64,000 nt of DNA from Escherichia coli (lineage in GTDB: Bacteria; Pseudomonadota; Gammaproteobacteria; Enterobacterales; Enterobacteriaceae). This document shows positions 11,001 through 59,340 of the stretch, one piece after another (within the stretch, counting starts at the first letter, position 1; every line of letters starts with the position of its first letter). The notes beneath the pieces are model-generated. The model had not been told where the DNA came from. It was given only the letters and a program-made list of their open reading frames with translations, and did no database searches. A program made the translations under genes and the position numbers. The DNA lies in the NCBI RefSeq assembly GCF_013122565.1, contig NZ_CP053258.1; one strand, written 5' to 3'.

Positions 11001-11329
11001 TGGGACCCCCTTTTGATTTCTTGTTTGACACTTGCAGTTGCCAGACCGCAAGGTGTTTTAACAAATCAAAAGGGGTTTTAATAACTGGCTCAAAGCTGAA
11101 AGCTTTCCGGAACCCCCAGTCTAGCTGGGGGTTTTCTGTGCACAAGAAGAGCCCGTACGAAAGTACGGGCTTTTTTTTCGTATATTGCACACACCGGGTG
11201 CCCCCGCCCACGTCTGTTAGGGCGAGGGGAAATCGTACACATCAACTGTCTGATTGCTCAGTCAACAATCAAAATGCGCAAGAGAGTACAGAACATATAT
11301 GCGCTATCTGGTCACTTCCTGTAACTTCC

Positions 11330-26138: not shown

Positions 26139-27758
26139 TTACATTTGGTACGAAAAATTAAAATTTATATTCACCCGATCAATATCTAATGTCGCCGGGT
26201 ACTTTAATGGGGTAGAAACGGAAAAGTTATACTCAAGACTTTTTATGTTTCCATCAATACCAACTGCCGCGCCCACCAGTGATTCATCGCCATAAGAAGC
26301 GTCCTGATACACTTGCCCAAAATCAAGACCGGCATAATAATTAGCTTTCATTCCAGGCAAAGGAAATGCCAGCGTATTTTTTATATAAAAACCATCATTC
26401 CCTGACAAACCTACGCTATTTTCAAACCCGCGAATACTCCAACGATCGCCAACTGTAATTTGATCTTGCAAAGTCAGTTCACACGGTGCGTACTGGGCAA
26501 AAAAAGCGGTATTGTAATATCCATTATCTATTTGTCGGGTATAGTTACCCTCAAAATTAAAGATATTGCTTACCGGGCTAACGTCGCCATATTGCATATT
26601 CGGCGTTTTTTCACCACCGAACCAAGTTAAAAAGCGTTGCCACGAGAGGGTTGAATCCCAGAACGCGCCGGGTAACTGTTGCTTATAATTTAGCCCCAGC
26701 TTGATATTTCCCATATCCCGCGCCTGTAATGTCAGCTCCTCACCATTAAGCGTGTAATTCGACTTTCGTCGAATGAGTTCTGCACTCCCGGCGAATTTTT
26801 TTGTTTTATCGCGATAAACGGTACGCGTCGCCTTTGCGCTCAAGTATTCGCTGGTGCCAACATAATCCAGCGAGATGTACGAAAGCGGAATCACCTGCTG
26901 CGATTTACTTTTGCTATAGAAAAAGCCGTACTCCCAGTACCCCACCGGAATGGAATAATAGCTACTGACGTTTTCGTACTGTCCAGTAGTACTACGCGTA
27001 CCGGCGAGATAAAACAGATCCCCCATTTTCGCTGGATTAAACAGATAACCCACCGCGGTTGTCTGGTAACGGCCCGTTTCTTCATCGCCCCAATTGTTGT
27101 AACTTGCCCGAACGCTCCAGTTTTTGCCCCGGTGTGTATCAATATGAACGATGCTGTAACCATCCCGTGTTCCCGGTTCAATATTAATTTTCACATCAAC
27201 GTCAGGTACTCGCTGAAGATTTTCCAGCCCCTGTTCAATATCGCGAATATTGAGAATATCGTTACGCTGAAAAGGTAACATCCATTCACTGATATCATTA
27301 CCTTCCACAATCGTTTTTTCTATCTTCCCGGCATTAACCTGGAAACGTAGCTTGCCTTTAGAAATATCCTGCGAAGGGATACTAATTCGCGTTGTGATAT
27401 ATCCGGCATTAATATAATAATCCTGCAAGGCAGCAGCAATTTTTTGCACACCAGCACTACCGACACAACGTCCGGCAATCGCTTTTTGCACTTCAGAAAT
27501 AAACTGACCATCCAGAAAGTTATCTTCCAGTTCAATCCGATTAATGATAAAGCAATTCTTTTCCTGCGGTAGATCACTCAGAGTAAACGCATTACGTTGT
27601 GCATTTGAGTAAACATCTTTTTTTTCTAATTTATGCGCGCGTAACGTGCTTTCATCTGCATTTTTTTGCTGCTTGATCAAATTATCAATACTGTCTTTCG
27701 CTGCAACCTGAAAACAACAAAGAATGAGCAGCAAACCAAAATTAAATCGTAATTGCAT
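26139..27758 (-). CDS. TpsB outer-membrane transporter (ShlB/FhaC/HecB family)
   Basis: Signal peptide, POTRA-region length, loop-6 SIRGFE (VRGY/F) motif. Confidence 0.8.
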   Translation of the reverse strand: MQLRFNFGLLLILCCFQVAAKDSIDNLIKQQKNADESTLRAHKLEKKDVYSNAQRNAFTLSDLPQEKNCFIINRIELEDNFLDGQFISEVQKAIAGRCVGSAGVQKIAAALQDYYINAGYITTRISIPSQDISKGKLRFQVNAGKIEKTIVEGNDISEWMLPFQRNDILNIRDIEQGLENLQRVPDVDVKINIEPGTRDGYSIVHIDTHRGKNWSVRASYNNWGDEETGRYQTTAVGYLFNPAKMGDLFYLAGTRSTTGQYENVSSYYSIPVGYWEYGFFYSKSKSQQVIPLSYISLDYVGTSEYLSAKATRTVYRDKTKKFAGSAELIRRKSNYTLNGEELTLQARDMGNIKLGLNYKQQLPGAFWDSTLSWQRFLTWFGGEKTPNMQYGDVSPVSNIFNFEGNYTRQIDNGYYNTAFFAQYAPCELTLQDQITVGDRWSIRGFENSVGLSGNDGFYIKNTLAFPLPGMKANYYAGLDFGQVYQDASYGDESLVGAAVGIDGNIKSLEYNFSVSTPLKYPATLDIDRVNINFNFSYQM

Positions 27759-27846
27759 TATCTTCTCAAACTAAATAAAGACAGCAGCAACCCCTGCGTG
27801 ACATGACGCATTAATATTAAATGCCACTGCTGTCTTTGGTTACATC

Positions 27847-30800
27847 TTACATGCCGACAATAGTACCGGTGTTGTCAGTTTCGTTTGCTTCTAACGCTAA
27901 ACCGTAGAAGCCACCGAGAACAGCGTCTTTACCGCTATTCGTAACCTTATTTGCCGATACGCCAGCGACACCATAACTCAGCATATTGAGGTAGTTATAA
28001 ATATTACCGGTGGTTTTAACACCCAGAGAATAATCACCCACAATATTTCCACGGTTATTAATGTCATTCACGGCATTGATCGCGATGGTTTGTCCCAACA
28101 TATTACTGTTGCTGTTGTTGGTAACATACTTCTGCGTATCAATAGTCAGCGCAGTTCCCGCCACAATGTCTTTAAAGTTCTCAACACCGTTCAGGGCATT
28201 AATGGTCAGCGCGTTGTCCGCTGCGATGGCATTACGGTTATACAGCGTGCCTTTCAGAACATTGAAATGCACATCCCCTTTACCGCTGATCCAACCATAG
28301 TTAGTGACGCTGTTATCAACGTTCAGATCTAGGTTTTTGTCAGACGCAATCACGCCCGTGGCGGTATTGTCTTCCAGACGACCATCACTGGCGTTACTCA
28401 ACGACGCCGCATAAACATCGAGATTACCGGCGCTGTAAGTGGTGGCATAGTTGTTGTAGAACATACCAGCCGCACGGATGATGGCATCAGCCCCACTGCT
28501 AAGAAGCGCGCGGGTATTATCCAGCGTTCCCCTGGACAGCAGATTAAGCGGACCATTTTCAGCGATGATGCTGCTGTTATTGTTGTAGACGTTCTGAGCA
28601 GAAAGCGTGACACCTTCTTTACCCACAATGCCACCAACGTTGTCAGTAATACCGAAAACTTCACCGTTATAACGCAGGAAGTTATTCCCGTCGCGGTTTT
28701 CGAGGTTGCCGCCAGCGTTAATAACCAGCTTTTTATTCGCCGCGATCAGCGCAGTGTTGTTGTAAATCGTCGATTTAGCATCGACAGAAACATTCTCACC
28801 GGCAATCAAACCATAGGCGTTGTCTACAATGTTCGCCGTCAGAGTCACGTCGCCCGTTTCAGAGGTCAGCGAGCCCTTAAAACTGTCGTAGTTGCCCGTC
28901 AGTGCCAGCGTGACGTCGTCATAACCACGAATTTCACCGTAGTCGTTGTTCAGATTGCTGCCTTTTACAGACAACACGCCGTTCAACGCATGCAGCTTAC
29001 CGCGGTTGTTACCCACGTTGCCCTTCGAATCGATAATCAGATCGCCTGTCGCTTCGATGGTCGCGTTATTGTTGGCCACGCTATTTGCCGTTAATGCGAC
29101 ATCCCCATAACCCACCATATAGAGATAGTTATACAGGTTGCCTTTGGTTGTCACGTTCAGGTCAACATCACTGACAATGTTGCCACGGTTGTTGATATCG
29201 TTAACCGCGTTAATAACGATATTCTGCCCCACCATATTGCTGTTGGAGTTGTTGGTCACATGGCGATTGGTGTTCATCGTCAGGTCGCCGCCAGCAGAAA
29301 TATCCTTCCAGTTTTCAATACCGTTCAGTGCTGCAATGTCCAACCCCTTTTCAGCCGCAATAGTATTGCGGTTGTACAGGTTGCCATTTTTCACCGTGAC
29401 ATCAACATCACCTTTACCGCTGATCCAGCCGTAGTTGGTAAGGCTATTCACCACTTCCAGTGACAGATTTTTGTCAGATGCAATGAACCCGGTCGCATTG
29501 TTATCGATCATCGTACCGCTGCTGCTGTTTTGCAGCGTGGTCGCGTCGATATCCAGGTTGCCCGCACTCCAGGTGGTAGCGTAGTTGTTGTAATACGTTC
29601 CGCCAACCTGAATAGATGCATCCGCCCCGCTGATGACCAGAGCTCGCGTGTTGTCGAACGTGTTCTGCGCCTGCAGAGTCAGAGGACCATCCTCAGCGAT
29701 AATACGGCTGTTGTTGTTATAGATGTTCTGCCCGGAAAGCTCGATGCCTTCCTTGCCGACCATTCCACCCGTTTGCTGAGGCATGCCGAAGTACTGACCA
29801 TAAGCATTACCGAAGTTATTGCCATCGCGGTTTTCGATACTGCCGCGCGCATTTATCTTCAGTTTTTTGCTGGCCACGATCAGCGCTGTGTTGTTATTGA
29901 CGCCAGACATCGACTCCATCGTGATGTTCTGCCCCATCATGAAGCCGCCGTGGTTATCCACGGAGTTGGCTAACAGGGAGATATCACCCTCTTCAGAGCT
30001 GATCACGCCAATATTATTGGTCAGGCTGCCGCCAACGGCGACTTCAATACCCTGCTTACCGCTGATCCCCCCGGTATCGTTACGCAGAGAGCTTCCCTTG
30101 ATAATCACTTTGCTGTTGGACAGAATTTTGCCCGCATAGTCGTCGATCGTGCTGTAACTTGACAGGGAGACGTTGCCATTAGACGCAATCTGTCCGCCAT
30201 TGTTATTGATGTTGTTCGCACCAATTTCTACGCCGGTATCTGCAATAATGCCCAGAGAGTCAGAACTGCCGGTATCGGCGGTTTTGGTTGAACCATTATT
30301 TACGCTACCTGCCGCACCAATAACGATATGCCCGGTGGACGAACGGATCAGACCTTTGTTGTTATCCACATTACCGTTACTGATAATGGCGATATCGCCA
30401 GTGGTCTGGATATCACCGCTGTTGTTATTCAACGCGCCTGATTCAAGCCCCACATAACCGCCGCGAATCTGACCATTGCTGTTGTTGAGCGTTCCGGTTT
30501 TCAGCGCCACGAGCCCCGCTTCAATCCCGACAGAACTCCCTTTACCAGAGTTAATCAGCGTGGCGTTATTGGTATCAACCGCCAGCATACCTGCTGCGGC
30601 GAGCTTGCCGTTGGTGTTATCAATCGTGCCACTGTTAACGTAGATATCGCCCATCGTAGAGATGTTACCCGCACGGGTATTCACGATAGTATTCTTGTTG
30701 GTATTAAGCGAGATAGTGCCTACAGATGTCACCGTACCGGTGGTGTTATCCAGAGTACCATTTGTTGTCAGGTTGATCGTGCTTGCAGACTGAATCTGGG

Positions 30801-31659
30801 CGTTACTGTTTAACAGGTTACCTTTGGAATCGATGCTGACACCATTAACCCCCCCAGCAATAACGCCGAGGTTGCGAACCCCCACACCTTTCTCGGTGCT
30901 GACCAGACTGATTTTGTTCGCATACATTCCGCCCAGTTTGGCAACATCTACGCTGTAACCGTTACGGGACCCCGTGGCGGATACGCTACCGGTCACCTGG
31001 CCTGCGGCATTAACATAGTTATTGCCAGCAACAACGTTCAGCTCATCGGCAGACACTTTGCCGTTAACTACCACGTTACGGGACAGAATTTCTGTCGGGC
31101 TGGCGTTATCCAGTTTACCGAGCGTAATGGTACCGCCGTTCACGGAGTAACCGGCCAGCTTGTCATCCTGGATATCCGGCGTCCCGGTGGTTAAGGTAAG
31201 TTTACCTGTATTGATTGAACCGCCACCGTTTACAGTAATACCATTCGGGTTGGCAATAATCAGATCCGCTTTATCCCCTGCAACTTCCATCATCCCATTA
31301 ATGGTTGAAGGATTTTTGGAAGTAACCTCATTCAGGATCACCTTCGCCGACCCGGAGGTCAGATTACTGTTTCCCTGAATATTTCCGGCAAGTGAAGTAC
31401 TGGATTCATTAGCGCTGTTATTGAAAACGACACCATTTTTATCAACGTTTAGGTTATCCCAGATATTATGAGATAAACCGCTACCGTTAGGTTTGTTGAT
31501 GTCAACGACTGGCACACCATTGGCGTTATATACCGTTCCATTTTTTATGACTAATCCCGCCGCTTGAGAAGCTACAGGAAAAGACAACATCATAAGTATA
31601 GCAATAGGGGTTAATGCTTTACCCACCGTTGCTTCCTTACTTAAATTTATCATCGCCAC
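27847..31659 (-). CDS. TpsA exoprotein (filamentous haemagglutinin/haemolysin-like), 1270 aa, with internal tandem duplication
   Basis: N-terminal TPS domain with ANPNGI motif; Asn/Gly/Thr-rich beta-helix repeats; no recognisable C-terminal toxin domain. Confidence 0.85.
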   Translation of the reverse strand: MAMINLSKEATVGKALTPIAILMMLSFPVASQAAGLVIKNGTVYNANGVPVVDINKPNGSGLSHNIWDNLNVDKNGVVFNNSANESSTSLAGNIQGNSNLTSGSAKVILNEVTSKNPSTINGMMEVAGDKADLIIANPNGITVNGGGSINTGKLTLTTGTPDIQDDKLAGYSVNGGTITLGKLDNASPTEILSRNVVVNGKVSADELNVVAGNNYVNAAGQVTGSVSATGSRNGYSVDVAKLGGMYANKISLVSTEKGVGVRNLGVIAGGVNGVSIDSKGNLLNSNAQIQSASTINLTTNGTLDNTTGTVTSVGTISLNTNKNTIVNTRAGNISTMGDIYVNSGTIDNTNGKLAAAGMLAVDTNNATLINSGKGSSVGIEAGLVALKTGTLNNSNGQIRGGYVGLESGALNNNSGDIQTTGDIAIISNGNVDNNKGLIRSSTGHIVIGAAGSVNNGSTKTADTGSSDSLGIIADTGVEIGANNINNNGGQIASNGNVSLSSYSTIDDYAGKILSNSKVIIKGSSLRNDTGGISGKQGIEVAVGGSLTNNIGVISSEEGDISLLANSVDNHGGFMMGQNITMESMSGVNNNTALIVASKKLKINARGSIENRDGNNFGNAYGQYFGMPQQTGGMVGKEGIELSGQNIYNNNSRIIAEDGPLTLQAQNTFDNTRALVISGADASIQVGGTYYNNYATTWSAGNLDIDATTLQNSSSGTMIDNNATGFIASDKNLSLEVVNSLTNYGWISGKGDVDVTVKNGNLYNRNTIAAEKGLDIAALNGIENWKDISAGGDLTMNTNRHVTNNSNSNMVGQNIVINAVNDINNRGNIVSDVDLNVTTKGNLYNYLYMVGYGDVALTANSVANNNATIEATGDLIIDSKGNVGNNRGKLHALNGVLSVKGSNLNNDYGEIRGYDDVTLALTGNYDSFKGSLTSETGDVTLTANIVDNAYGLIAGENVSVDAKSTIYNNTALIAANKKLVINAGGNLENRDGNNFLRYNGEVFGITDNVGGIVGKEGVTLSAQNVYNNNSSIIAENGPLNLLSRGTLDNTRALLSSGADAIIRAAGMFYNNYATTYSAGNLDVYAASLSNASDGRLEDNTATGVIASDKNLDLNVDNSVTNYGWISGKGDVHFNVLKGTLYNRNAIAADNALTINALNGVENFKDIVAGTALTIDTQKYVTNNSNSNMLGQTIAINAVNDINNRGNIVGDYSLGVKTTGNIYNYLNMLSYGVAGVSANKVTNSGKDAVLGGFYGLALEANETDNTGTIVGM
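27972..30240. repeat. Two tandem ~1134-bp repeat units inside tpsA (approximate bounds)
   Basis: Antisense ORFs at 28061-28300 and 29138-29434 end in the same SPLPLIQP peptide 1134 bp apart; corresponding TpsA segments (~370 aa each) align with high identity. Confidence 0.7.
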
Positions 31660-33051: not shown

Positions 33052-33675
33052 ATGAACAAGAACTTACTAACAAGGGTAATTATCATTTCGGATGATCTAT
33101 ATTACCTTCAGGGATTAAGTGCAAAACTAGGTCACCATTATCGTTTTTTTATTGAGTGTTTTTTTTGTTCTCAAAATGCATGCAATAATGACCTAAGTAC
33201 ACTTAGATTTGACAACCGCTTTACAAAAAACGTACTTCTTGTCGCAGTGGATGACGTAAGTATACTTGCAAAACTGCCAGATTTGGCCAGGTTTTTAATG
33301 ATTGTTTCACTAAGAAAGATGAAAAACAGAAATATCTTCTTTTCACTTTCAGAGCAAACATTCATTAGCCGATATATAAAATTGAATAAACTCATTACTT
33401 TGATTAAAAGTACTGATAAAGACCAGCAAGTCAGGCAGGTGACTCTGACAAGGTATGAGTGGGATATCTATTACTTATTTTTTAAGATAGATAACAAAAG
33501 AATATTGCACACCCTGCTAAAAAAGGATGTCAAGTATATTAGTCACTATAAAATATCAGTTTTTAATAAGTTTGAAATTGCTTGTGATAGTGATGGCTTT
33601 TACATTTTCAAGGCACTTATACAGTTAAGGAGATTTACCCGTTTTAAAAACGTCAGATTGTATCAATTGCATTAA
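33052..33675 (+). CDS. Putative transcriptional regulator (LuxR-type C-terminus, tentative), 207 aa
   Basis: AT-rich ORF directly upstream of fimbrial major subunit; weak LuxR-HTH-like C-terminal segment. Confidence 0.35.
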   Translation: MNKNLLTRVIIISDDLYYLQGLSAKLGHHYRFFIECFFCSQNACNNDLSTLRFDNRFTKNVLLVAVDDVSILAKLPDLARFLMIVSLRKMKNRNIFFSLSEQTFISRYIKLNKLITLIKSTDKDQQVRQVTLTRYEWDIYYLFFKIDNKRILHTLLKKDVKYISHYKISVFNKFEIACDSDGFYIFKALIQLRRFTRFKNVRLYQLH

Positions 33676-33717
33676 TTAACTCGTTCTATATTAACTCTAA
33701 ATTTCAAGGATATTAAT

Positions 33718-34278
33718 ATGTTTTCTACTTTCAAAAAAGCAGCTCTGCTGGCAGCTATTGCATTACCTTTTTCAACTATGGCTGCGCCTACAGTCACTTT
33801 TCAGGGTGAAGTAACCGATCAGACCTGTTCCGTAAATATCAACGGTCAAACCAATTCAGTAGTATTGATGCCGACCGTAGCCATGGCTGACTTCGGTGCA
33901 ACTTTAGCTGATGGTCAGAGCGCAGGCCTGACGCCGTTTACGGTTTCTGTGTCTAACTGCCAGGCTCCAACTGGTACAGATCAGGCAATCAACACCACCT
34001 TCCTGGGCTACGACGTTGACGCTAGCACGGGTGTTATGGGAAACCGTGATACCAGCAGCGATGCGGCGAAAGGCTTTGGCATTCAGTTAATGGATTCCAG
34101 CACTTCTGGTAACCCAATAACTCTGGCTGGCGCGACTAACGTACCGGGTCTGACCCTGAAAGTTGGCGATACCGAAGCCAGCTACGACTTCGGTGCGCGT
34201 TACTTCGTTATCGATAGCGCTGCTGCCACTGCCGGTAAAATTACCGCTGTCGCAGAATACACCCTGAGCTACCTCTAA
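33718..34278 (+). CDS. Fimbrial major subunit (FimA-like)
   Basis: Signal peptide, TVTFQGEVTDQTCSV N-terminal motif, ~19 kDa. Confidence 0.8.
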   Translation: MFSTFKKAALLAAIALPFSTMAAPTVTFQGEVTDQTCSVNINGQTNSVVLMPTVAMADFGATLADGQSAGLTPFTVSVSNCQAPTGTDQAINTTFLGYDVDASTGVMGNRDTSSDAAKGFGIQLMDSSTSGNPITLAGATNVPGLTLKVGDTEASYDFGARYFVIDSAAATAGKITAVAEYTLSYL

Positions 34279-34342
34279 TTAATCTACTGGCTGGCAGTAA
34301 ATGTCAGCCAGTATTTCTTTGCACAATTAATAGTGATTTTTC

Positions 34343-35065
34343 ATGGACATGGAAAAGATAAGAATGAACATTTTTGCATATTTACTGGTACTTGTATTTT
34401 CCATGAGCATGAGCAGCAGCGCGTTTGCCAGCGTGGTAATGACCGGAACCCGTATTATTTTCCCTGGTGACGCAAAGGAAAAAACCATCCAGTTGCGAAA
34501 TACCAGCGATCAGCCCTATATCATTAATATCCATGTTGAGGATGAACGTGGTTCTGACAAGAATATACCGTTTATGCCAACCCCGCAGACATTTCGCATG
34601 GAAGCTGCCGCAGGTCAGGCGTTACGCCTGCTCTACACTGGTGATAATTTACCGCAGGATCGCGAGTCTGTTTTCTGGTTTAGTTTCAGTCAACTACCTT
34701 ATCTGAATAAGAACGATAAAAGTCAGAACCAGCTCATCCTGGCCCTGACTAATCGAGTCAAAATTTTCTATCGTCCCAGCTCAATTGTCGGTAAATCCAG
34801 TGACGCGCCAAAAAACCTGACTTACCAAGTAAAACAGAACCGCATTGAAGTGACGAATCCCACGGGCTATTACGTCGTGATTCGCGCCGCTGAACTGCTT
34901 AATAACGGTAAAAAAGTCCCCCTCGCGAATTCCGTCATGATTGCTCCTCAAGGCAAAACTGAATGGACACTACGCACTGGCATCAGCGTCGCTCCCGGTG
35001 CGCAGATTCATTTAGTGACCGTCAATGACTATGGCGTAAATGTCACGTCTGAGCATGCCTTATAA
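34343..35065 (+). CDS. Periplasmic fimbrial chaperone (PapD-like)
   Basis: Signal peptide and typical chaperone N-domain pattern. Confidence 0.8.
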   Translation: MDMEKIRMNIFAYLLVLVFSMSMSSSAFASVVMTGTRIIFPGDAKEKTIQLRNTSDQPYIINIHVEDERGSDKNIPFMPTPQTFRMEAAAGQALRLLYTGDNLPQDRESVFWFSFSQLPYLNKNDKSQNQLILALTNRVKIFYRPSSIVGKSSDAPKNLTYQVKQNRIEVTNPTGYYVVIRAAELLNNGKKVPLANSVMIAPQGKTEWTLRTGISVAPGAQIHLVTVNDYGVNVTSEHAL

Positions 35066-35117
35066 GCTCTTTCCCCTTTTTTGAGCGGTATCCTTTTTCA
35101 CGCACGAGTATGTCGAG

Positions 35118-37640
35118 ATGAATAAATCCGTTGTGTCAATTTCTGCGGCAATATTGGTTTTACTCTGCCAGCCGGTTATGGGGAAAGAAATCTCACCCGC
35201 TACACCGTCAGATGAAGATAACTACACCTTTGACCCGCAACTCTTTCGCGGCAGCAGATTTAGTCAGTCGTCATTGGCAAAACTGACAACTCGTGAGTCT
35301 GTTGCACCGGGTAATTATAAAATGGATATCTACACCAATAATAAGTTGTCAGGCAGTTGGAATGTCACGTTCAAAGAAGCCGCTGATGGTCGCGTTCTGC
35401 CCTGCCTGACGCCTGAAGTCGCGGACGCGATAGGCCTCAAAACAGGGGAAGATAAGGGTGAAAAAGATCCGGTCTGTACCTTTGCTCAGGAACTCGCTCC
35501 CGGCATCACCAGCCAGACACAGTTGTCACAACTACGCCTTGACTTGTCGGTGCCTCAGAGTCAAATGATTAGTCGCCCTCGCGGCTATGTCCCCCCCAGC
35601 GAGCTGGATACCGGAGCATCGCTGGCGTTCATGAATTATATTGCCAACTATTACAACGTTGCCTATTCAGGGCAGAATGCTCATAGCCAGCGTTCGCTAT
35701 GGGCATCATTTAATGGTGGCATCAACCTTGGTGCCTGGCAATATCGTCAGTTATCCAACATGACCTGGGATAATGACAAAGGGAATCAGTGGAACAATAT
35801 TCGTAGCTATTTGCAACGCCCGCTGCCCGCCATAAATAGCCAGTTAATGATGGGGCAGCTTATCACCAGCGGAAGATTTTTCTCTGGACTCAGTTATCAC
35901 GGCGTTAGTCTCGCGACCGATGAACGTATGCTGCCGGACTCCATGCGCGGCTATGCGCCGACTATTCGCGGCGTGGCCGCAACAAACGCCAGAGTCTCGG
36001 TAATGCAAAACGGTCATGAAATATATCAGACCACCGTGGCTCCTGGCCCTTTCGAGATAAACGACCTATACCCCACCAGCTACAGCGGCGATCTGGATGT
36101 CACCGTTACGGAAGCTAACGGCGCAGTCAGTCGTTTCAGTGTCCCCTTTTCAGCCGTACCAGAATCGATGCGTCCAGGAACTTCCCGTTATAACGTGGAA
36201 GTAGGTAAAACGCAGGATAGTGGTGATGACTCGATGTTTGGTGACCTTACCTGGCAGCACGGGATGACTAATACGCTGACATTTAACAGTGGTTCGCGTA
36301 TCGCTGATGGCTACCAGGCGCTGATGCTGGGCGGAGTCTATGGCAGTTCGCTGGGGGCATTTGGGGCAAACCTCACTTGGTCCCATGCGCGTGTTCCCGA
36401 AAGCGAAGCGCAGAGTGGTTGGATGTCGCAATTAACCTGGAGTAAAACTTTCCAGCCTACTTCAACCACCGTCTCCCTGGCAGGTTATCGATACTCTACC
36501 AGCGGCTATCGTGATCTGGCTGATGTGCTGGGAGAGCGTCATGCTGCCAGCAATAAACAGTCATGGGACTCCAGCCAGTGGCGTCAACAGTCGCGCTTCG
36601 ATCTTACGTTAAGTCAGAGCCTTGCGAATTACGGCAACCTGTTTGTGTCAGGTTCAACACAGAACTACCGTGGCGGCAAAAGCCGTGATACACAGCTTCA
36701 GTTAGGTTACAGCAATAGCTTTAGCCATGGCATCAGTATGAACCTTTCCGTCGGACGCCAAAGAATGGGCGGCTATAAAGACAATTCTGATGATATGCAG
36801 ACGGTAACATCCCTTTCATTCTCATTCCCACTTGGCGGCAATGGACCTCGTGTACCAAGTCTTAGCAACAGCTGGACCCATTCAACTGACGGTAGCTCGC
36901 AATTACAAAGCTCGCTAACCGGAATGCTTGATGAAGCACAGACCACCAACTACAGCCTGAACGTCATGCGCGATCAACAATATAAGCAGACGACGCTTAG
37001 CGGAAACATGCAAAAACGTTTTTCACAAACTACCGTCGGATTGAACGCATCGAAGGGCCAGGATTACTGGCAGGCTTCAGGTAACGTACAAGGCGCGATG
37101 GCTGTGCATGGTGGCGGCATTACTTTCGGACCTTATCTGGGTGAAACGTTCGCCCTGGTCGAAGCTAAAGGCGCAGAAGGTGCAAAAGTCTATAACTCCA
37201 GTCAGCTGGAAATTAATGACAGTGGCTATGCGCTTGTTCCGGCAGTAACGCCCTATCGATACAACCGTATATCTCTCGATCCACAAGGAATGGATGGCGA
37301 TGCCGAGTTGGTCGACAGTGAAAGACAGGTAGCACCGGTTGCAGGTGCGGCGGTGAAAGTAATTTTCCGTACCCGTCCTGGTAAAGCGTTGCTGATTAAA
37401 TCCCGCATGGCAGATGGTTCGGAACTGCCAATGGGAGCCGATGTGCTGGATGAGAATAATACAGTCGTCGGTATAGCCGGTCAGGGGGGGCAAATTTACC
37501 TCCGCACAGAACAGACAAAAGGCCACTTGTCAGTTCGCTGGGGTGAAGGTGCTAACGATAGCTGCCAATTGCCCTTTGATATCAGCGGGAAGGACAGCAA
37601 TAGCCCTATCATCCGCCTGAATGAAACCTGTCAGTCTTGA
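35118..37640 (+). CDS. Fimbrial usher, 840 aa
   Basis: Size, signal peptide, usher-typical composition. Confidence 0.85.
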   Translation: MNKSVVSISAAILVLLCQPVMGKEISPATPSDEDNYTFDPQLFRGSRFSQSSLAKLTTRESVAPGNYKMDIYTNNKLSGSWNVTFKEAADGRVLPCLTPEVADAIGLKTGEDKGEKDPVCTFAQELAPGITSQTQLSQLRLDLSVPQSQMISRPRGYVPPSELDTGASLAFMNYIANYYNVAYSGQNAHSQRSLWASFNGGINLGAWQYRQLSNMTWDNDKGNQWNNIRSYLQRPLPAINSQLMMGQLITSGRFFSGLSYHGVSLATDERMLPDSMRGYAPTIRGVAATNARVSVMQNGHEIYQTTVAPGPFEINDLYPTSYSGDLDVTVTEANGAVSRFSVPFSAVPESMRPGTSRYNVEVGKTQDSGDDSMFGDLTWQHGMTNTLTFNSGSRIADGYQALMLGGVYGSSLGAFGANLTWSHARVPESEAQSGWMSQLTWSKTFQPTSTTVSLAGYRYSTSGYRDLADVLGERHAASNKQSWDSSQWRQQSRFDLTLSQSLANYGNLFVSGSTQNYRGGKSRDTQLQLGYSNSFSHGISMNLSVGRQRMGGYKDNSDDMQTVTSLSFSFPLGGNGPRVPSLSNSWTHSTDGSSQLQSSLTGMLDEAQTTNYSLNVMRDQQYKQTTLSGNMQKRFSQTTVGLNASKGQDYWQASGNVQGAMAVHGGGITFGPYLGETFALVEAKGAEGAKVYNSSQLEINDSGYALVPAVTPYRYNRISLDPQGMDGDAELVDSERQVAPVAGAAVKVIFRTRPGKALLIKSRMADGSELPMGADVLDENNTVVGIAGQGGQIYLRTEQTKGHLSVRWGEGANDSCQLPFDISGKDSNSPIIRLNETCQS

Positions 37641-37655
37641 TACAGAGAAAACCCG

Positions 37656-38990
37656 ATGTCTAAATCGACTTTATTACACATTCTGATTAGCTCCATCATA
37701 TTGGTGGCACTAATACAATCATCCGCTTGGGCTAACTGTACAAACACACAGATAGGTCAAACTGAAGATGGTCGGACAGCGCTTATTGAGTTCGGAAAAA
37801 TTAATATGACCGACACCTATTTTGCGCCAGCAGGTTCACTCCTCGCGACAACGGTCGTACCTCCCACTAACTACACATCAGGTGGCGCGACAGGAAGCTC
37901 AGTATTGTGGGAATGTGATGCAACAGATTTGCCAAACATCTATTTTCTGGTCGCTACCAATGGCGACGACCGCGTGGGGGGCTTTTACGATGCAGGCGGG
38001 CCTGATGGTCTGAGTGATGTCTATGCCACCTGGTTCGCTTTTGTCGGTCTCAAGCAGACCATGGCGGGCGTGACGCTTGGTCGTTACTGGAAGAAAGTGC
38101 CCATCACCAGTTATGCCACTCAGGGAACTAAAATCCAGATTCGCTTACAGGATATCCCTCCTCTTCATGCTGAGCTTTATCGCATCAGTACGCTACCTGA
38201 TACATCAGCAACAACAAGTTGGTGCGGTAATAATAATACAGATGGTAGTGGAGTCGGATTCGCAAAACCTTCCGGTACAATCTATAACTGTGTTCAGCCC
38301 AATGCCTATATTCAGCTTTCCGGTACCAGCGGCATTTTATTTGGTCATGATGAGCCCGGCGAAGATAGTTCTGTTCATTGGGATTTCTGGGGTGCTGATA
38401 ATGGTTTTGGTTACGGAATGCGTTCGGCCAATCGACTCTACAACAATGCCACCTGCGTTGCCCGCAGCGCCACGCCGTTAGTATTGCTGCCGACAATTGC
38501 AGAAGCACAACTGAATGCGGGCATGGAAAGTACCGGTAATTTTAATGTCCGCGTCGAGTGTAGTAACTCGGTTCAATCAGGGATTAGCGATACTCAGACA
38601 GCATTAGGAATCCAGGTGTCTGAAGGTGCATATACAGCGGCGCAAAAACTGGGGATTATCAATAGCAACGGCGGCGTCAGCGCCCTGGTCTCTGATAATT
38701 ATGACGCAGCAGAGATGGCAAAGGGCGTTGGGATCTACATTTCTAACAGTGCTCACCCCGATACGGCGATGACGCTGGTTGGTCAACCGGGCATCGCGAA
38801 GTTAACCCCCGGAGGAAATGCAGCGGGGTGGTATCCTGTATTTGAAGGGGCAACATTAGAAGGTGCGACTCACCCCGGATACTCCAGCTATAGTTACTCT
38901 TTTATCGCCCGGTTGAAGAAACTGCCAAATCAGACAGTCAGTGCGGGAAAAGTGCGGGCAACGGCTTATATATTGGTGAAAATGCAATGA
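37656..38990 (+). CDS. Large fimbrial subunit / putative tip adhesin, 444 aa
   Basis: Signal peptide; position after usher; unusually long for a pilin. Confidence 0.5.
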   Translation: MSKSTLLHILISSIILVALIQSSAWANCTNTQIGQTEDGRTALIEFGKINMTDTYFAPAGSLLATTVVPPTNYTSGGATGSSVLWECDATDLPNIYFLVATNGDDRVGGFYDAGGPDGLSDVYATWFAFVGLKQTMAGVTLGRYWKKVPITSYATQGTKIQIRLQDIPPLHAELYRISTLPDTSATTSWCGNNNTDGSGVGFAKPSGTIYNCVQPNAYIQLSGTSGILFGHDEPGEDSSVHWDFWGADNGFGYGMRSANRLYNNATCVARSATPLVLLPTIAEAQLNAGMESTGNFNVRVECSNSVQSGISDTQTALGIQVSEGAYTAAQKLGIINSNGGVSALVSDNYDAAEMAKGVGIYISNSAHPDTAMTLVGQPGIAKLTPGGNAAGWYPVFEGATLEGATHPGYSSYSYSFIARLKKLPNQTVSAGKVRATAYILVKMQ

Positions 38991-39676
38991 AATCCGTTTT
39001 GCTCCTCTTAACCGTCTTGTTCGTACAGTCAGTGGAAGCCGGCATCATGCCGGCTTCTTCACGGATTATTTATCGCGATGGCGATCGGGAAAAGACACTG
39101 ATGCTGGTCAATACCAATGACTATCCGGTACTGGTGCAAAGTTGGGTAGATAATGGTGAAGGTTCCCCAGAATCTGCTTCTCCCCCCTTTGTGGTGCTGC
39201 CACCGGTTTTCCGCCTGGCTGCGAGACGAACCCAGGGGTTGCGGATTATCTATAATCATGACCCACTTCCCCAGGATCGCGAATCTGCATTCTGGTTAAA
39301 TCTTTATGAAATGCCGCCAGAAACTCCCCATCAAGATCCCACACATTTAACGCTGGCAATGAATACGCAACTTAAAATCTTTTACAGGCCAAAATCTGTA
39401 ACTATGACGCCCCAAGAAGCTATGCGTAAAATAAGTTGGCATCTGGGTAACGACGGCAGCAGTAGCTATATTGAGCTTAATAACCCAACACCACTGAATA
39501 TCTCTTTCACCTCCATCAGCATTGGGGCTACAAAGGTGCAGCAAGAAAGCGATATGATGATAAAACCCTTCAGTCAACGACGGTACTGGTTAGCAAGTAA
39601 TAACGTTAGTGGTGTGGTTGCGGCGACATATCTCGATGATAATGGTGCACAGATAAAACAACAATTAGCGCAATAA
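38987..39676 (+). CDS. Second PapD-like fimbrial chaperone
   Basis: Signal peptide, chaperone-like motifs, 4-bp overlap with preceding gene. Confidence 0.7.
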   Translation: MKSVLLLLTVLFVQSVEAGIMPASSRIIYRDGDREKTLMLVNTNDYPVLVQSWVDNGEGSPESASPPFVVLPPVFRLAARRTQGLRIIYNHDPLPQDRESAFWLNLYEMPPETPHQDPTHLTLAMNTQLKIFYRPKSVTMTPQEAMRKISWHLGNDGSSSYIELNNPTPLNISFTSISIGATKVQQESDMMIKPFSQRRYWLASNNVSGVVAATYLDDNGAQIKQQLAQ

Positions 39677-52587: not shown

Positions 52588-53652
52588 TTAACTGTATGCA
52601 TGTAGCGTACGTTGGCAAAGTGCCGAACGTACGCAATCCTCTTTACCGAATCGGACGATCCCGACCATTTCATCTTCTTCGAAACGTTCCAGTGCGTCAC
52701 TTAATCCGGAGCGCACGCCGCGAGGTAAATCGCATTGCGTGATATCACCGTTAACGATAACCGTCACGTTCTCCCCGAGGCGGGTTAAAAACATTTTCAT
52801 TTGCGCGGCAGTCACATTCTGCGCCTCGTCAAGAATGACAACTGCATTTTCAAAGGTACGTCCACGCATATAGGCGAACGGCGCAATTTCCACCTTCCCT
52901 ATTTCCGGTCGCAGGCAGTACTGCATAAAGGAAGCCCCTAAGCGCCGGACCAGCACGTCGTATACCGGGCGAAAATAGGGAGCAAACTTTTCTGCGATAT
53001 CTCCAGGTAAGAAGCCAAGATCTTCATCGGCTTGCAGAACTGGACGGGTGACGATAATCCTGTCGACATCCTTATGTATCAGGGCCTCTGCCGCTTTTGC
53101 TGCGCTGATCCAGGTTTTTCCGCACCCGGCTTCGCCCGTAGCGAATATCAGCTGCTTACTCTCAATAGCCTTCAGATAGTGCAATTGCGCTTCATTTCGC
53201 GCGAGGATGGGCGAAGTATCGCGACTGTCGCGGGCCATACCAATGGCTTCTACGCCGCTCATCTGCACAAGCGAGGTGACCGATTCTTCTTCACGCTGCT
53301 TATGGCTGCGCGAATCCCGTCTCAGCACACGTTTTGCCTCGCGACGAGCTTTGATCACTGCTTTTTGTCTTCCCATGGAGAGCACCTTGAGTTGTTTGTA
53401 TTCATCACACGCGCCGTTGGCAGCGCGATTATGCGCACGAACATCAGAGGGTTGGCTTCCTTGTAAGCCATAGTTTGCTTTTGGATAAAATGCCGAAAAA
53501 CGGCTACGCGCACCGTTTACGGCGTCGGTAACACATGAAAAGAAAGGATGAGGTTGAAAATGCAAAGTGACGAGATGACTACCGGAGGAGAAAACTCCGC
53601 GAGTGGTGGCGCGTTGATTATCTAAAACATGTCCAGTACAGGACGTTACCAT
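52588..53652 (-). CDS. phoH: PhoH, phosphate-starvation-inducible ATPase
   Basis: 354 aa; Walker A GEAGCGKT; PhoH-like domain. Confidence 0.9.
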   Translation of the reverse strand: MVTSCTGHVLDNQRATTRGVFSSGSHLVTLHFQPHPFFSCVTDAVNGARSRFSAFYPKANYGLQGSQPSDVRAHNRAANGACDEYKQLKVLSMGRQKAVIKARREAKRVLRRDSRSHKQREEESVTSLVQMSGVEAIGMARDSRDTSPILARNEAQLHYLKAIESKQLIFATGEAGCGKTWISAAKAAEALIHKDVDRIIVTRPVLQADEDLGFLPGDIAEKFAPYFRPVYDVLVRRLGASFMQYCLRPEIGKVEIAPFAYMRGRTFENAVVILDEAQNVTAAQMKMFLTRLGENVTVIVNGDITQCDLPRGVRSGLSDALERFEEDEMVGIVRFGKEDCVRSALCQRTLHAYS

Positions 53653-53996: not shown

Positions 53997-55268
53997 TTAA
54001 ACCCGCAATAACGCGCTTCCGAGATAATCATTCGCGTCCTTCACTCCCGGCAGCGCAAAAAAATAGCCGCCGCCGATAGGTTTAACGTATTCCTCCAGCG
54101 CTTCGCCATTGAGCCTTTTTTGTACTGTCAGGAAGCCTTTTTCCAGATCGTGCTGGTAGCAGACAAACAGCAACCCCATATCCAGTTGTCCGGAGTTGGT
54201 GACGCCCAGTGAATAACTGTAGCCACGACGCAGCATCAGGCTGGACTCACTCTCCGCCGTGCGGGGATTCGCCAGCCGGATATGGCTGTCCAACGCAATC
54301 ACCTTCCCTTCCGGGTCGCTGGCGTAATCAGGCACATCATGCTCATGCTGCATTCCCAGCGGCGCACCGGTTTGCTTATCACGGCCAAAAATCGTCTGCT
54401 GTTCTTTCAGCGGCGTTCTGTCCCAAAATTCCACTCGAAACTGAATCAAGCGTACTGCCTGATAGCTGCCACCGATTGTCCACGCAGGCTCCTGCTGATC
54501 TGCCGTTACCCACACCACTTTTTGCATCAACTTATCATTCTGGCTATCGGGATTGGCAGTGCCGTCTTTGAAACCCAGCAAATTAATCGGCGTCTCTTTG
54601 CCTTTACTACGCGCCGCGTGATCGGAAATAAACCCTTCCCGCTTCCAGCGCACACTGAGCAAATCCGGCGTGTGTTTGATGATATCGCGCAGCGCATGGA
54701 TAACCGTGTCCTGGGTGTTGGCGCAAATCTGTAGCAACACATCACCATGACATAACGCCGCATCCAGCGAGTCGTTGGGGAAACGCGTCATCTTCTGCAG
54801 CTTTTTTGGCATCTGTGGCGCAAGGCCAAAGCGCTCATCAAACAATGAGTGACCCACCGATAACGTGATGGTGAGATTATCGGGCGCAATGTAGCCGCCA
54901 AGAATGCCGGAATCGAGTGGTGGCAGGCGCGGATTTGGCGTTTCTGGTGCTGCTCCGCCCTGAGTCAGAAAAGCAAAACGCTGAGTCAACAAGCGAAACA
55001 ACCGCTCAAGATCGGCTTTATCGCTGGCAAGCACATCAAACGCCACCAGCATCATTGCGGCCTGTTGTGGCGTCAGGATCCCTGCCTGATGCTCACCATA
55101 AAACGGCTGTTTCTCATTGCGAGCATCCGGTGAAAGCGTACCCGGCGCACTTTGCGTTTTTTGTGCATGAGCGACCGGACAACTTCCCGCCAGCGCCAGT
55201 GCACCTATCACTTTCAGTAAACGTCGGCGTGACGGTTCATTCACGCCGTTTTCATCTTTATACTGCAT
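53997..55268 (-). CDS. efeB: EfeB, Tat-exported DyP-type haem peroxidase
   Basis: 423 aa; twin-arginine signal [16 protein letters not shown]. Confidence 0.9.
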
Positions 55269-55273
55269 AACGC

Positions 55274-56401
55274 TTAATCCAGTCCCAGCACACCGCGAAG
55301 TTGCGCCAGATCTTCCGCCAGCGCAGTAATCGGTCCTTTCAGTGCATTCCGGTCGGCATCGGTCAATTTGTCGTAGGTTTCAAAACCGTCTTTAGTACGG
55401 TATTTCGCCAGAATGGTATCGACCTTTTTAAAGTTGGCATCGACTTTTGCCAGCAGTTCCGGGTTGGCTTTTTGCAGTTGTGGACGCAGCAAATCGACAA
55501 TTTTCTGCGAGCCTTCAACGTTAGCCTGGAAATCCCACAGATCGGTGTGGCTGTAGCGATCTTCTTCACCGCTAATTTTGCTGGCTGCCACTTCCTCAAT
55601 CAGTCCGGCTGCGCCGCCGACCACTTTTGAAGGTGGGAAAGCCAGTTCACTGATGCGTTTTTGCAAATCGACCACATCGGTATAAAGCTGCTCAGCGTAC
55701 TGATCCATCCCTTTGGTGGTGTTGTCGCCAAACAATGCTTTTTCCAGACGGTGGAAACCAGTGAATTTTGGGTCGGCGGCTTTTTGCTCGTAATCATCTT
55801 CACGGGCGTCAATGCTGCCATCCAGATCGGAGAACAGTTCAGCAATCGGTTCAATACGCTCATAGTGCTGGCGCGTCGGTGCATACAGTGCTTTCGCTTT
55901 TTCGATATCGCCTGCTTTAATCGCGTCGGTAAAGGCTTTGGTGTCGGTCACCAGCTGCGTGGTTTCCGCCATGACATACGCTTTATATGCAGTAATTGCA
56001 CCACCAAGACTTAACAGCGCATCACTTTGCGCCGCATCCGCCGTTGCCTCACCTTTGACGATCAACTTCCCTTTCGGGTTAGTCAGCAGACCGCAGGTCA
56101 TATCGTATTCGCCAGGCTGTAAATTCGCCGTCATTTTCTGGCTAAAGCCAGGGGCGATATTTTCCCGCTCTTCCACCACCATCACGCCTTTGAGGATCTC
56201 CCACTCCAGCGCCTTCTGGCTGTGGTTCTGAATAATGAACTGTGTTTTCCCGGCGTTAACCGTAATGGTCATCGGTTCGCACTGCTTATCCGTCACGGTC
56301 ACTTTGACCTGCGGCACATCAGCGGCGTTAGCCATAAAAGCAGAAGAAAACAGCGCAGCCACGCTCAACTGCAATGCGTTACGGCGGAAGTTAATGGTCA
56401 T
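55274..56401 (-). CDS. efeO: EfeO, periplasmic iron-uptake component
   Basis: 375 aa, signal peptide, operon position. Confidence 0.9.
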
Positions 56402-56458: not shown

Positions 56459-57289
56459 TTACGCGGAGCGAGACGCTGTCGCCCCTGCGCGTGGTGGCAG
56501 AGCAAATGCCACCAGCGCCGGGATGAGATAAATAAACCAGACGGCGACTTCGCTGACGCTCGGCGCTTCCTGATAGCCAAAAATCCCTTCCATCAGCGTG
56601 CCAAACAGCGAGTGAGTTGAGAGCACCGCACTCATATCGAAGGCGATTTCCTGAAAGTGGTTCCACAATCCGGCTTCATGAAATGCGCGAATGGCACCAG
56701 CTGCCAGCCCTGCGGCGACGAAGAGAATAAACAGGCTGGTCCATTTAAAAAATGCACCAAGATTGAGGCGAATACCGCCCCAGTAGAGCAGGAAGCCTAG
56801 CACCACGGCAGTAGCAAGACCGAGCATTGCACCCAGCGGCGGCCAGATCCCGACATCTTGTTGAAATGCCGCCAGCAGGAAAAAGACCGACTCCAGCCCT
56901 TCCCTTGCAACGGCAAAAAAGACCATCATCACCAGCGCCCAGCCATGATGATTTCCACGCTGCAATGCGCTATCGACTGCCTGTTCCAGTTGCACTTTGA
57001 CGTTGCGCGACACTTTGCGCATCCAGAAAACCATCCAGGTAAGGATCACCACGGCGATCACCGCCACGATACCTTCAAACAGTTCCTGTTCTTTTTGCGG
57101 AAATTCGCCGGTGGTTTCGTTAATGAAGATACCCAAGCCCAGGCACAACGCAGCGGCAAGCAACACGCCAATCCACATCACACCAATCCATCGGCCTCGC
57201 TGGGTACGCTTAAGATAGCTGGCAATCAAACTGACAATCAGCGCGGCTTCAAGTCCTTCGCGCAACATAATGAGAAACGGAACAAACAT
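56459..57289 (-). CDS. efeU: EfeU, FTR1-type ferrous iron permease, intact reading frame
   Basis: Two REGLE motifs (REGLEAAL, REGLESVF); uninterrupted ~276 codons. Confidence 0.85.
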   Translation of the reverse strand: MFVPFLIMLREGLEAALIVSLIASYLKRTQRGRWIGVMWIGVLLAAALCLGLGIFINETTGEFPQKEQELFEGIVAVIAVVILTWMVFWMRKVSRNVKVQLEQAVDSALQRGNHHGWALVMMVFFAVAREGLESVFFLLAAFQQDVGIWPPLGAMLGLATAVVLGFLLYWGGIRLNLGAFFKWTSLFILFVAAGLAAGAIRAFHEAGLWNHFQEIAFDMSAVLSTHSLFGTLMEGIFGYQEAPSVSEVAVWFIYLIPALVAFALPPRAGATASRSA

Positions 57290-57346
57290 GCCACCCACCC
57301 TTAAACGTTTTTCTGAGTCAATCTATGCAAAGAAAAGTAAATCGCA

Positions 57347-57365
57347 GTGATAGCGATTATCATTA
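57347..57365. promoter_or_regulatory. Fur-box-like sequence (tgatagcgattatcattac) upstream of efeU
   Basis: Resemblance to GATAATGATAATCATTATC consensus, ~60 bp upstream of efeU start. Confidence 0.4.
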
Positions 57366-57831
57366 CGGCAAAGAAAAACACAAGCGGAATGTTTATAAAA
57401 TGATGTTGGAATGTAAACAAAGAGAGGTAATGCCAGGGGATATAAACGATTATTCCAGGGTAGAAAGATGGGATTGTTTGCAAAGAACCATGTGTTCTTG
57501 CCGGATGCCGCGTAAACGCCATATCCAGCCGACAAAACTGTCCAGACTCAATGCATCAGAGCTTCCATGTAAAACTGATAAGCGGGTGTATCAAGCAATT
57601 TCGTCCATCCGCGATTATCAAATCTAACTTTTTGCCCGGAACATAATAACAGCTCGGGTGTTGGTGGCGTCAAAATCGCTGAAGCGTTCCCCGAAGGCCG
57701 GGACAGCAGGGGGCGGCGGCGATTGGCCGCCCCCTGCGCGCTCCCTGCACCATTCAATTTATATGGCGAGGCACATTAAGGGAGCGCAACCCGCTGCTGA
57801 AGCCAAACAAAACCGCCGCAGGCTAAGTCCC

Positions 57832-59340
<1,509 letters not shown>

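What the first reader, a model, noticed from the sequence alone, without database searches (positions are those of the whole stretch)
56459..57365. efeU is intact here, with a Fur-box-like site upstream
The EfeU ORF is uninterrupted and has both REGLE iron-binding motifs, whereas K-12 is known to carry a frameshifted efeU; the efeUOB ferrous-iron system is therefore predicted functional. A Fur-box-like 19-mer lies in the promoter region.
Basis: partly seen in the sequence, partly recalled or inferred. Interest (0 to 1): 0.3.

Follow-up and report, generated by a model that had tools for sequence, protein, structure and literature searches.

The report
Ordinary intact efeU with Fur box
This E. 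coli window carries the normal, uninterrupted iron-permease gene efeU with its known Fur repressor site, which is the usual state in E. coli; only the K-12 laboratory lineage has the broken copy.

Summary
efeU lies on the minus strand, with ATG at 57289 and its stop codon at 56459-56461. It encodes an uninterrupted 276-aa protein that matches Pfam FTR1 over its full length and scores above the NCBIfam EfeU cut-off. REGLE motifs sit at residues 10-14 and 129-133.

Across the putP-efeU-efeO interval, K-12 MG1655 differs from the window by two intergenic SNPs and one deleted G in codon 36 (GGT, 57182-57184). That is the published K-12 lesion.

The exact K-12 allele occurs in 368 of 5417 complete E. 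coli genomes. All 60 top-ranked carriers listed appear to be K-12-lineage or laboratory strains. The window's exact 82-mer occurs in 3584 genomes.

The window EfeU is identical to that of an O157:H7 genome. EfeO is identical to K-12's, and EfeB is full length.

The Fur-like 19-mer is CGTAATGATAATCGCTATC at 57349-57367, 60-78 nt upstream of the ATG. It matches the consensus at 15/19, the best match in the 64 kb. It is identical in K-12 and invariant in six divergent E. coli promoters. Published Fur ChIP-exo peaks in MG1655 and W3110 map to -63..-51 and overlap it.

Nothing here is new, so interest is low.

The parts
56459..57289 (-). efeU CDS: ATG at 57289, stop codon at 56459-56461, 276 aa. 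It encodes an Ftr1-type inner-membrane iron permease.
   Evidence: Full-length FTR1 match, EfeU equivalog score above cut-off, and identity to WP_000497942.1 of five other E. coli genomes including O157:H7.
57248..57262 (-). First REGLE motif (aa 10-14, CGC GAA GGA CTT GAA), in the first hydrophobic segment.
   Evidence: and the sequence.
56891..56905 (-). Second REGLE motif (aa 129-133, AGG GAA GGG CTG GAG).
   Evidence: and the sequence.
57182..57184 (-). Codon 36 (GGT, Gly36). This is the site where K-12 lacks one G. In K-12 the frame then reads ...W34 I35 V36 followed by a stop. The window has both Gs.
   Evidence: Alignment and K-12 translation. [quoted passage not shown] K-12 annotations mark the gene as a pseudogene or frameshifted.
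57291..57300 (-). Purine-rich GGGTGGGTGG just upstream of the ATG, the likely Shine-Dalgarno region.
   Evidence: Sequence; inference only.
57349..57367 (-). Fur box, CGTAATGATAATCGCTATC, 15/19 to consensus, at -78 to -60 from the ATG.
   Evidence: for the match and shuffle statistics. One search shows it invariant in six divergent E. coli promoters plus K-12. Searches give the overlapping Fur ChIP-exo peaks.
57340..57352 (.). Window position equivalent to the published Fur ChIP-exo peak, at -63 to -51 from the efeU ATG in both MG1655 and W3110.
   Evidence: PMC10164565 supplement file 3. For MG1655, the offset assumes version-2 coordinates shifted by 777 bp.
57327..57341 (+). CpxR-like box GCAAAGAAAAGTAAA, 9/10 to GTAAA-N5-GTAAA, between the Fur box and the ATG. 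Candidate site for the reported CpxAR repression.
   Evidence: One search found only 3 sites with at most 1 mismatch in 64 kb. CpxR regulation of efeUOB is reported in PMC3852070. Binding at this site was not tested.
55274..56401 (-). efeO, 375 aa, a periplasmic protein with cupredoxin and M75/imelysin domains. It starts 57 nt after the efeU stop.
   Evidence: Identical to K-12 EfeO.
53997..55268 (-). efeB, 423 aa, a DyP-type haem peroxidase with a twin-arginine signal (SRRRLLK). It starts 5 nt after the efeO stop.
   Evidence: TIGR01412, 619 bits against a 428 cut-off. One substitution against K-12 (window L416, K-12 F).

Best explanation
This is the ordinary wild-type efeUOB operon of E. coli, a Fur-repressed, acid-induced iron uptake system.

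The three products are EfeU, EfeO and EfeB. EfeU is a 276-aa Ftr1-like inner-membrane permease with two REGLE motifs. EfeO is a periplasmic cupredoxin/M75 protein. EfeB is a Tat-exported DyP peroxidase.

Under iron-replete conditions Fe2+-Fur binds the 19-bp box 60-78 nt upstream of the efeU ATG. It blocks the promoter by overlapping or abutting the -10 region. Iron limitation releases Fur and the operon is transcribed. A CpxR-like box just downstream is a plausible site for the published high-pH repression.

Because efeU lacks the K-12 one-base deletion in codon 36, the permease is made at full length and the system is expected to work.

Shown here: gene integrity, family membership, the exact K-12 lesion, allele frequencies, the Fur-box match with its conservation, and its coincidence with published ChIP-exo peaks. 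Inferred: actual transport activity, the exact promoter position, and CpxR binding.
For: Integrity and family.

K-12 comparison: MG1655 differs in the whole putP-efeU-efeO interval by two intergenic SNPs (57521, 57436) and the single-G deletion in codon 36. This truncates the K-12 product after residue 36. [quoted passage not shown]

Allele frequencies: the exact K-12 allele is in 368 of 5417 genomes. All 60 top-ranked carriers listed appear to be K-12-lineage or laboratory strains. The window's exact 82-mer is in 3584 genomes, and the rows sampled from the remainder show SNP variants without a gap.

Function: EfeU is identical to that of an O157:H7 genome. Cao et al. 2007, by its title, reports the system as functional in O157:H7 and cryptic in K-12.

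Fur regulation: the box is 15/19, unique at that level in 64 kb, with p about 0.003 by shuffling. It is invariant across promoters whose upstream flanks have diverged or been replaced. [quoted passage not shown]
Against: The sigma-70 consensus scan found no promoter at its threshold in 57200-57900, so the geometry of Fur box relative to promoter rests on weak 8/12 hexamer candidates that I picked by eye.

The reported ChIP-exo interval overlaps only the 3' four bases of the 19-mer, and its centre lies about 23 nt downstream of the box centre.

The whole 80 nt upstream of the ATG is nearly invariant in E. coli, so conservation is not specific to the box.

The MG1655 coordinate conversion assumes the older genome version. 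The W3110 mapping, checked directly, gives the same offset.
Confidence: 0.93

Rival explanations
1. efeU is intact by reading frame, but the system is nevertheless non-functional in this strain because of a missense change, a promoter lesion or a defect in efeO/efeB.
For: No assay was possible. EfeB differs from K-12 at residue 416 (window L, K-12 F) and from the O157:H7 genome at four N-terminal positions. No terminator or promoter was confirmed by the scans.
Against: EfeU is identical in all 276 residues to the O157:H7 protein. EfeO is identical to K-12's. EfeB is full length and scores 619 bits against a 428 cut-off. The proximal 146 nt upstream of the ATG is base-for-base identical to K-12, and K-12 still shows Fur-regulated efeO/efeB expression.
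Confidence: 0.04
2. The 19-mer is a chance AT-rich resemblance, and Fur acts through a neighbouring or overlapping site instead, for example sequence centred at about -57.
For: The published ChIP-exo interval (-63..-51) overlaps only 4 nt of the box. Four consensus positions are mismatched. The entire 80-nt leader is conserved, not just the box.
Against: It is the single best consensus match in 64 kb, and 15/19 or better arises in only 0.1-0.3% of shuffles. The central 11 bases TAATGATAATC match the consensus exactly. From my own knowledge, Fur footprints are typically about 30 bp, and such a footprint centred on the peak would reach into the box. The positions just 5' of the box vary between lineages while the box does not.
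Confidence: 0.06
3. The apparent intactness is an assembly or sequencing artefact at a short G run.
For: The difference from K-12 is a single base in a GG dinucleotide.
Against: The identical 82-mer is present in 3584 independent complete genomes. GG is not an error-prone homopolymer. The frame yields a full-length family match.
Confidence: 0.01

Closest known systems
EfeUOB (YcdNOB) of E. coli O157:H7 and Nissle 1917 (Cao et al. 2007; Grosse et al. 2006)
   Same: Same gene order, efeU-efeO-efeB downstream of putP. EfeU is 100% identical to an O157:H7 genome's EfeU. EfeO differs by 1 aa and EfeB by 4 aa from O157:H7. The Fur box and proximal promoter are the same.
   Different: The distal putP-efeU spacer differs. 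O157:H7 carries a 1344-nt hypothetical gene there, whereas the window has the K-12-type spacer with the TRIP1b repeat.
efeU pseudogene of E. coli K-12 (b4490, formerly efeU_1/efeU_2, ycdN)
   Same: Nucleotide-identical CDS apart from one base. Identical Fur box, leader and EfeO.
   Different: K-12 lacks one G in codon 36, which truncates the product after 36 residues within the second hydrophobic segment. The window does not have this deletion.
Yeast Ftr1p / OFeT family permeases
   Same: Full-length FTR1 Pfam domain, two REXXE (REGLE) motifs, and a multi-pass membrane protein.
   Different: The periplasmic partners are EfeO (cupredoxin-M75) and the DyP peroxidase EfeB rather than the multicopper oxidase Fet3p (PMC9174327).

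Membership tests
EfeU / Ftr1 (OFeT) iron permease | Full-length match to the family profile, above the curated cut-off | tested here: met
   Pfam FTR1 over 1-275 of 276 residues, 300 bits against 25.3. NCBIfam EfeU equivalog NF041756, 331 bits against 255. TIGR00145, 352 bits against 304.
EfeU / Ftr1 (OFeT) iron permease | Two REXXE (REGLE) motifs in transmembrane segments | tested here: met
   REGLE at aa 10-14 and 129-133. The first lies in hydrophobic segment 1-24.
EfeU / Ftr1 (OFeT) iron permease | Seven transmembrane helices | tested here: inconclusive
   A Kyte-Doolittle scan gives six clear segments (1-24, 32-60, 68-94, 146-173, 177-204, 242-266). The REGLE-bearing stretch around 117-142 falls below threshold. 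This is consistent with the seven reported (PMC9174327), but no dedicated topology predictor was run.
EfeU / Ftr1 (OFeT) iron permease | Operon context efeU-efeO-efeB | tested here: met
   efeO begins 57 nt and efeB 5 nt after the preceding stop codon. Both pass their equivalog cut-offs.
EfeU / Ftr1 (OFeT) iron permease | Iron transport activity | not testable with these tools
   Inferred only, from identity to the O157:H7 protein.
K-12-type cryptic efeU | One-base deletion in codon 36 | tested here: not met
   The window has GGT at 57182-57184 where K-12 has G-T. The window is therefore not the cryptic allele.
Fur box (Fur-Fe2+ operator) | Resemblance to the 19-bp consensus GATAATGATAATCATTATC beyond chance | tested here: met
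   15/19, the only such site in 64 kb, with shuffle frequency 0.1-0.3%.
Fur box (Fur-Fe2+ operator) | Location in the promoter region of an iron-uptake operon | tested here: met
   At -78..-60 from the efeU ATG. The exact -10/-35 elements were not resolved.
Fur box (Fur-Fe2+ operator) | Fur occupancy in vivo | tested here: met
   This comes from published data mapped here, not from an experiment on this strain. ChIP-exo peaks at -63..-51 in MG1655 and W3110, whose sequence is identical over this region.
Fur box (Fur-Fe2+ operator) | Iron- and Fur-dependent expression of the downstream genes | not testable with these tools
   Published for nine other E. coli strains (efeO/efeB in the core Fur regulon) and for CFT073.
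CpxR box | Tandem GTAAA-N5-GTAAA near the promoter | tested here: inconclusive
   GCAAAGAAAAGTAAA at 57327-57341, 9/10, one of 3 such sites in 64 kb. The primary paper that mapped CpxR control was not available.

The most novel reading that the evidence does not exclude
The roughly 80-nt leader between the Fur box and the efeU ATG is almost invariant across E. coli lineages. It contains a small hairpin followed by a T-rich run (57340-57358, AATCGC-N7-GCGATT then TACTTTTCTTT) that overlaps the Fur and CpxR-like sites. It could be a cis-acting RNA element, such as an attenuator or an sRNA target, that adds a post-initiation layer of control to efeUOB. The one variant seen in the stem (C to T in strain PK5) would keep pairing as G-U.
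Probability: 0.04. Interest if true: 0.3.

Novelty: already known. Interest (0 to 1): 0.06.

Why it matters
It matters little beyond annotation. It shows that this strain, unlike K-12 laboratory strains, should have a working low-pH Fe2+ uptake route (EfeUOB). That is relevant when K-12 iron physiology is extrapolated to natural isolates.

Two facts may be useful to others. The K-12 efeU CDS differs from this allele by exactly one base and carries no other change. The lesion also appears confined to the K-12 lineage, being present in 368 of 5417 complete genomes.

Tried and rejected
- The sigma-70 promoter scan of 57200-57900 found nothing at its threshold. My hand-picked candidates are only 8/12 each, so I do not claim a promoter position. 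They are TTGTGT-N16-GATAAT, with the -10 inside the Fur box, and TTGTTT-N17-TATAAA, further upstream and not conserved in strain HCM-27C-1.
- The one terminator-like hairpin in the leader is within chance expectation (1 found against 1.1 expected).
- Folding the 100-nt leader as RNA gave z = +1.14, less stable than shuffles.
- Rfam gave only sub-threshold hits: naRNA4 at 28.5 bits against 59.5, and a miRNA family.
- No terminator-like site was found after efeB.
- The primary paper, Cao et al. 2007, is not in the library. The mapped transcription start and CpxR sites could therefore not be checked against the sequence.
- I chose not to spend a genome-contig scan on cross-genus footprinting of the Fur box. 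Published ChIP-exo and regulon data already settle the point.
- I considered whether the window could be a K-12 relative that had reverted the deletion. I rejected this because the flanking 25 kb is only about 98.5% identical to K-12 and carries a 31.7-kb island that K-12 lacks.

Full report
**What is in the sequence**

The window is E. coli chromosome, running in reverse orientation relative to K-12 through putA, putP, efeU, efeO, efeB, phoH and pgaD. On the minus strand an uninterrupted ORF spans 56459-57298. The start annotated in RefSeq genomes with identical DNA is the ATG at 57289, giving 276 aa.

The protein matches Pfam FTR1 end to end (residues 1-275, E 1.8e-89). It scores 331 bits on the NCBIfam EfeU equivalog against a cut-off of 255. 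REGLE occurs twice, at residues 10-14 and 129-133. A hydropathy scan gives six clear hydrophobic segments plus the charged REGLE-bearing stretch around 117-142. That is compatible with the seven helices reported for EfeU (PMC9174327).

efeO (55274-56401) and efeB (53997-55268) follow after gaps of 57 nt and 5 nt. Both pass their equivalog cut-offs.

**Locating the K-12 frameshift**

I fetched MG1655 (NC_000913.3), where efeU is annotated as pseudogene b4490. I aligned the whole putP-efeU-efeO interval with the window. There are three differences:
- an intergenic SNP at window 57521;
- an intergenic SNP at window 57436;
- one missing G in K-12 at window 57183/57184.

The missing G falls in codon 36 (GGT, Gly36). 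The K-12 frame then reads ...W34-I35-V36-stop. [quoted passage not shown] W3110's RefSeq annotation also says 'frameshifted'. Apart from that one base, the K-12 CDS is nucleotide-identical to the window's.

**How unusual intactness is**

It is not unusual. An 81-mer carrying the K-12 deletion is matched exactly in 368 of 5417 complete E. coli genomes. All 60 top-ranked carriers listed appear to be K-12-lineage or laboratory strains, including MG1655, C600, J53, DH5alpha, DH1, RR1 and NCM3722.

The window's 82-mer is matched exactly in 3584 genomes. The rows sampled from the remainder show 82-base matches with one to three SNPs and no gap.

The EfeU protein accession WP_000497942.1 is shared by all five genomes I sampled from different lineages, including an O157:H7 strain. 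All five translations are identical to the window's.

The O157:H7 system is the one reported as functional, and the K-12 system as cryptic (title of Cao et al. 2007, cited; Grosse et al. 2006, cited). The window's EfeO is identical to K-12's. Its EfeB differs from K-12 at one residue (window L416, K-12 F).

**The Fur box**

I scanned both strands of all 64 kb against GATAATGATAATCATTATC. The best site, and the only one with at least 15 matches, is 57349-57367. In the efeU sense it reads CGTAATGATAATCGCTATC and lies 60-78 nt upstream of the ATG.

A match of 15/19 or better arose in 0.27% of 3000 dinucleotide shuffles of the 542-nt spacer. It arose in 0.1% of shuffles of the AT-rich proximal 151 nt.

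The site is identical in K-12. It is also invariant in six E. coli promoters whose sequence immediately 5' of the box varies and whose distal spacer is diverged or replaced. The entire 80 nt down to the ATG is nearly invariant too, so conservation alone does not single out the box.

Independent experimental support comes from the supplement of PMC10164565. It lists Fur ChIP-exo peaks at 1080516-1080528 in MG1655 (labelled efeU_1, intergenic, repressed) and 1081715-1081727 in W3110. The W3110 efeU start is 1081778, which places that peak at -63..-51. The MG1655 peak gives the same offset if the table uses version-2 coordinates, with efeU at 1080579. Those coordinates are implied by the 'intergenic' label and the b1016 name.

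In window terms the peak is 57340-57352, overlapping the 3' end of the 19-mer. The same study lists efeO and efeB in the core Fur regulon of nine strains. [quoted passage not shown]

**Other regulatory anatomy**

A CpxR-like tandem, GCAAAGAAAAGTAAA at 57327-57341, matches GTAAA-N5-GTAAA at 9/10. It lies between the Fur box and the ATG. It fits the reported CpxR repression of efeUOB (PMC3852070), but I could not check it against the primary mapping.

The consensus promoter scan found no sigma-70 site at threshold, so the position of the box relative to -10/-35 is unresolved. The leader shows no significant RNA structure and no Rfam match at gathering score.

**Mechanism**

The best-supported reading is the textbook one. 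Fe2+-Fur occupies the operator at about -78..-50 and represses efeUOB. Iron limitation, together with low pH acting through Cpx, derepresses it. Full-length EfeU then acts with periplasmic EfeO and Tat-exported EfeB to import iron.

Gene integrity, the site match and its coincidence with published binding data are shown here. Transport and regulation in this particular strain are inferred.

**Verdict**

Interest is low.

Noticed in passing
window 12657-44397: About 31.7 kb lies between ycdU and dgcT, where K-12 has only IS3D. Homologous annotated genomes show a FAS/PKS-like cluster there: ACP S-malonyltransferase, two beta-ketoacyl synthases, ACP, a FabZ-like protein, an SDR, AcpS, an ABC transporter and a LolA-like protein. 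They also show a two-partner secretion pair (ShlB/FhaC plus a 1270-aa haemagglutinin-like protein, 26139-31659), a chaperone-usher fimbrial operon (33052-39676) and an EAL-domain protein (42701-44311). At least 80% of 22001-45000 is present in only 377 of 5426 genomes, including O157:H7. From my own knowledge it resembles O-island 47 of O157:H7.
   Followed up: partly
window 1-11143: This stretch has no counterpart in the K-12 62-kb neighbourhood. Annotated homologues show a decayed integrative element: a YfjI family protein, an HTH regulator, a 616-aa hypothetical protein, tyrosine recombinase fragments, and ISL3, IS3 and IS256 transposase remnants. Only 2 complete genomes cover at least 80% of window 1-22000.
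   Followed up: partly
window 57392-57831 (putP-efeU spacer): The distal spacer is variable in the species. In about 1200 genomes homology to the window stops at roughly 57392 or 57454. O157:H7-type genomes carry a 1344-nt hypothetical gene (WP_001247490.1) between putP and efeU. The window has the K-12-type spacer. By the offsets in PMC10888264 (41 bp after the putP stop, 355 bp before efeU), this spacer holds the 146-bp TRIP1b repeat at about 57645-57790.
   Followed up: partly
window 39001-64000: No complete RefSeq E. coli genome matches this 25 kb at 99% or better overall; the best are 97.5-98.4%. The efeU segment alone is 100% identical to O19:H7 strain 730V1 and 99.8% identical to K-12. 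The region therefore looks mosaic, and the source strain is not in that collection.
   Followed up: no
window 52588-53652 (phoH): The longest phoH ORF is 354 aa, as in the K-12 annotation (1065 nt). PGAP annotates a 789-nt version in strain 730V1. This is an annotation start-site discrepancy, not a sequence difference that I examined.
   Followed up: no
NZ_CP043542.1 (strain F2_81), efeU: This pig isolate matches only the first 42-50 bases of the 81/82-mer spanning codon 36. That suggests efeU is disrupted there by a different event, so inactivation does occur occasionally outside K-12.
   Followed up: no
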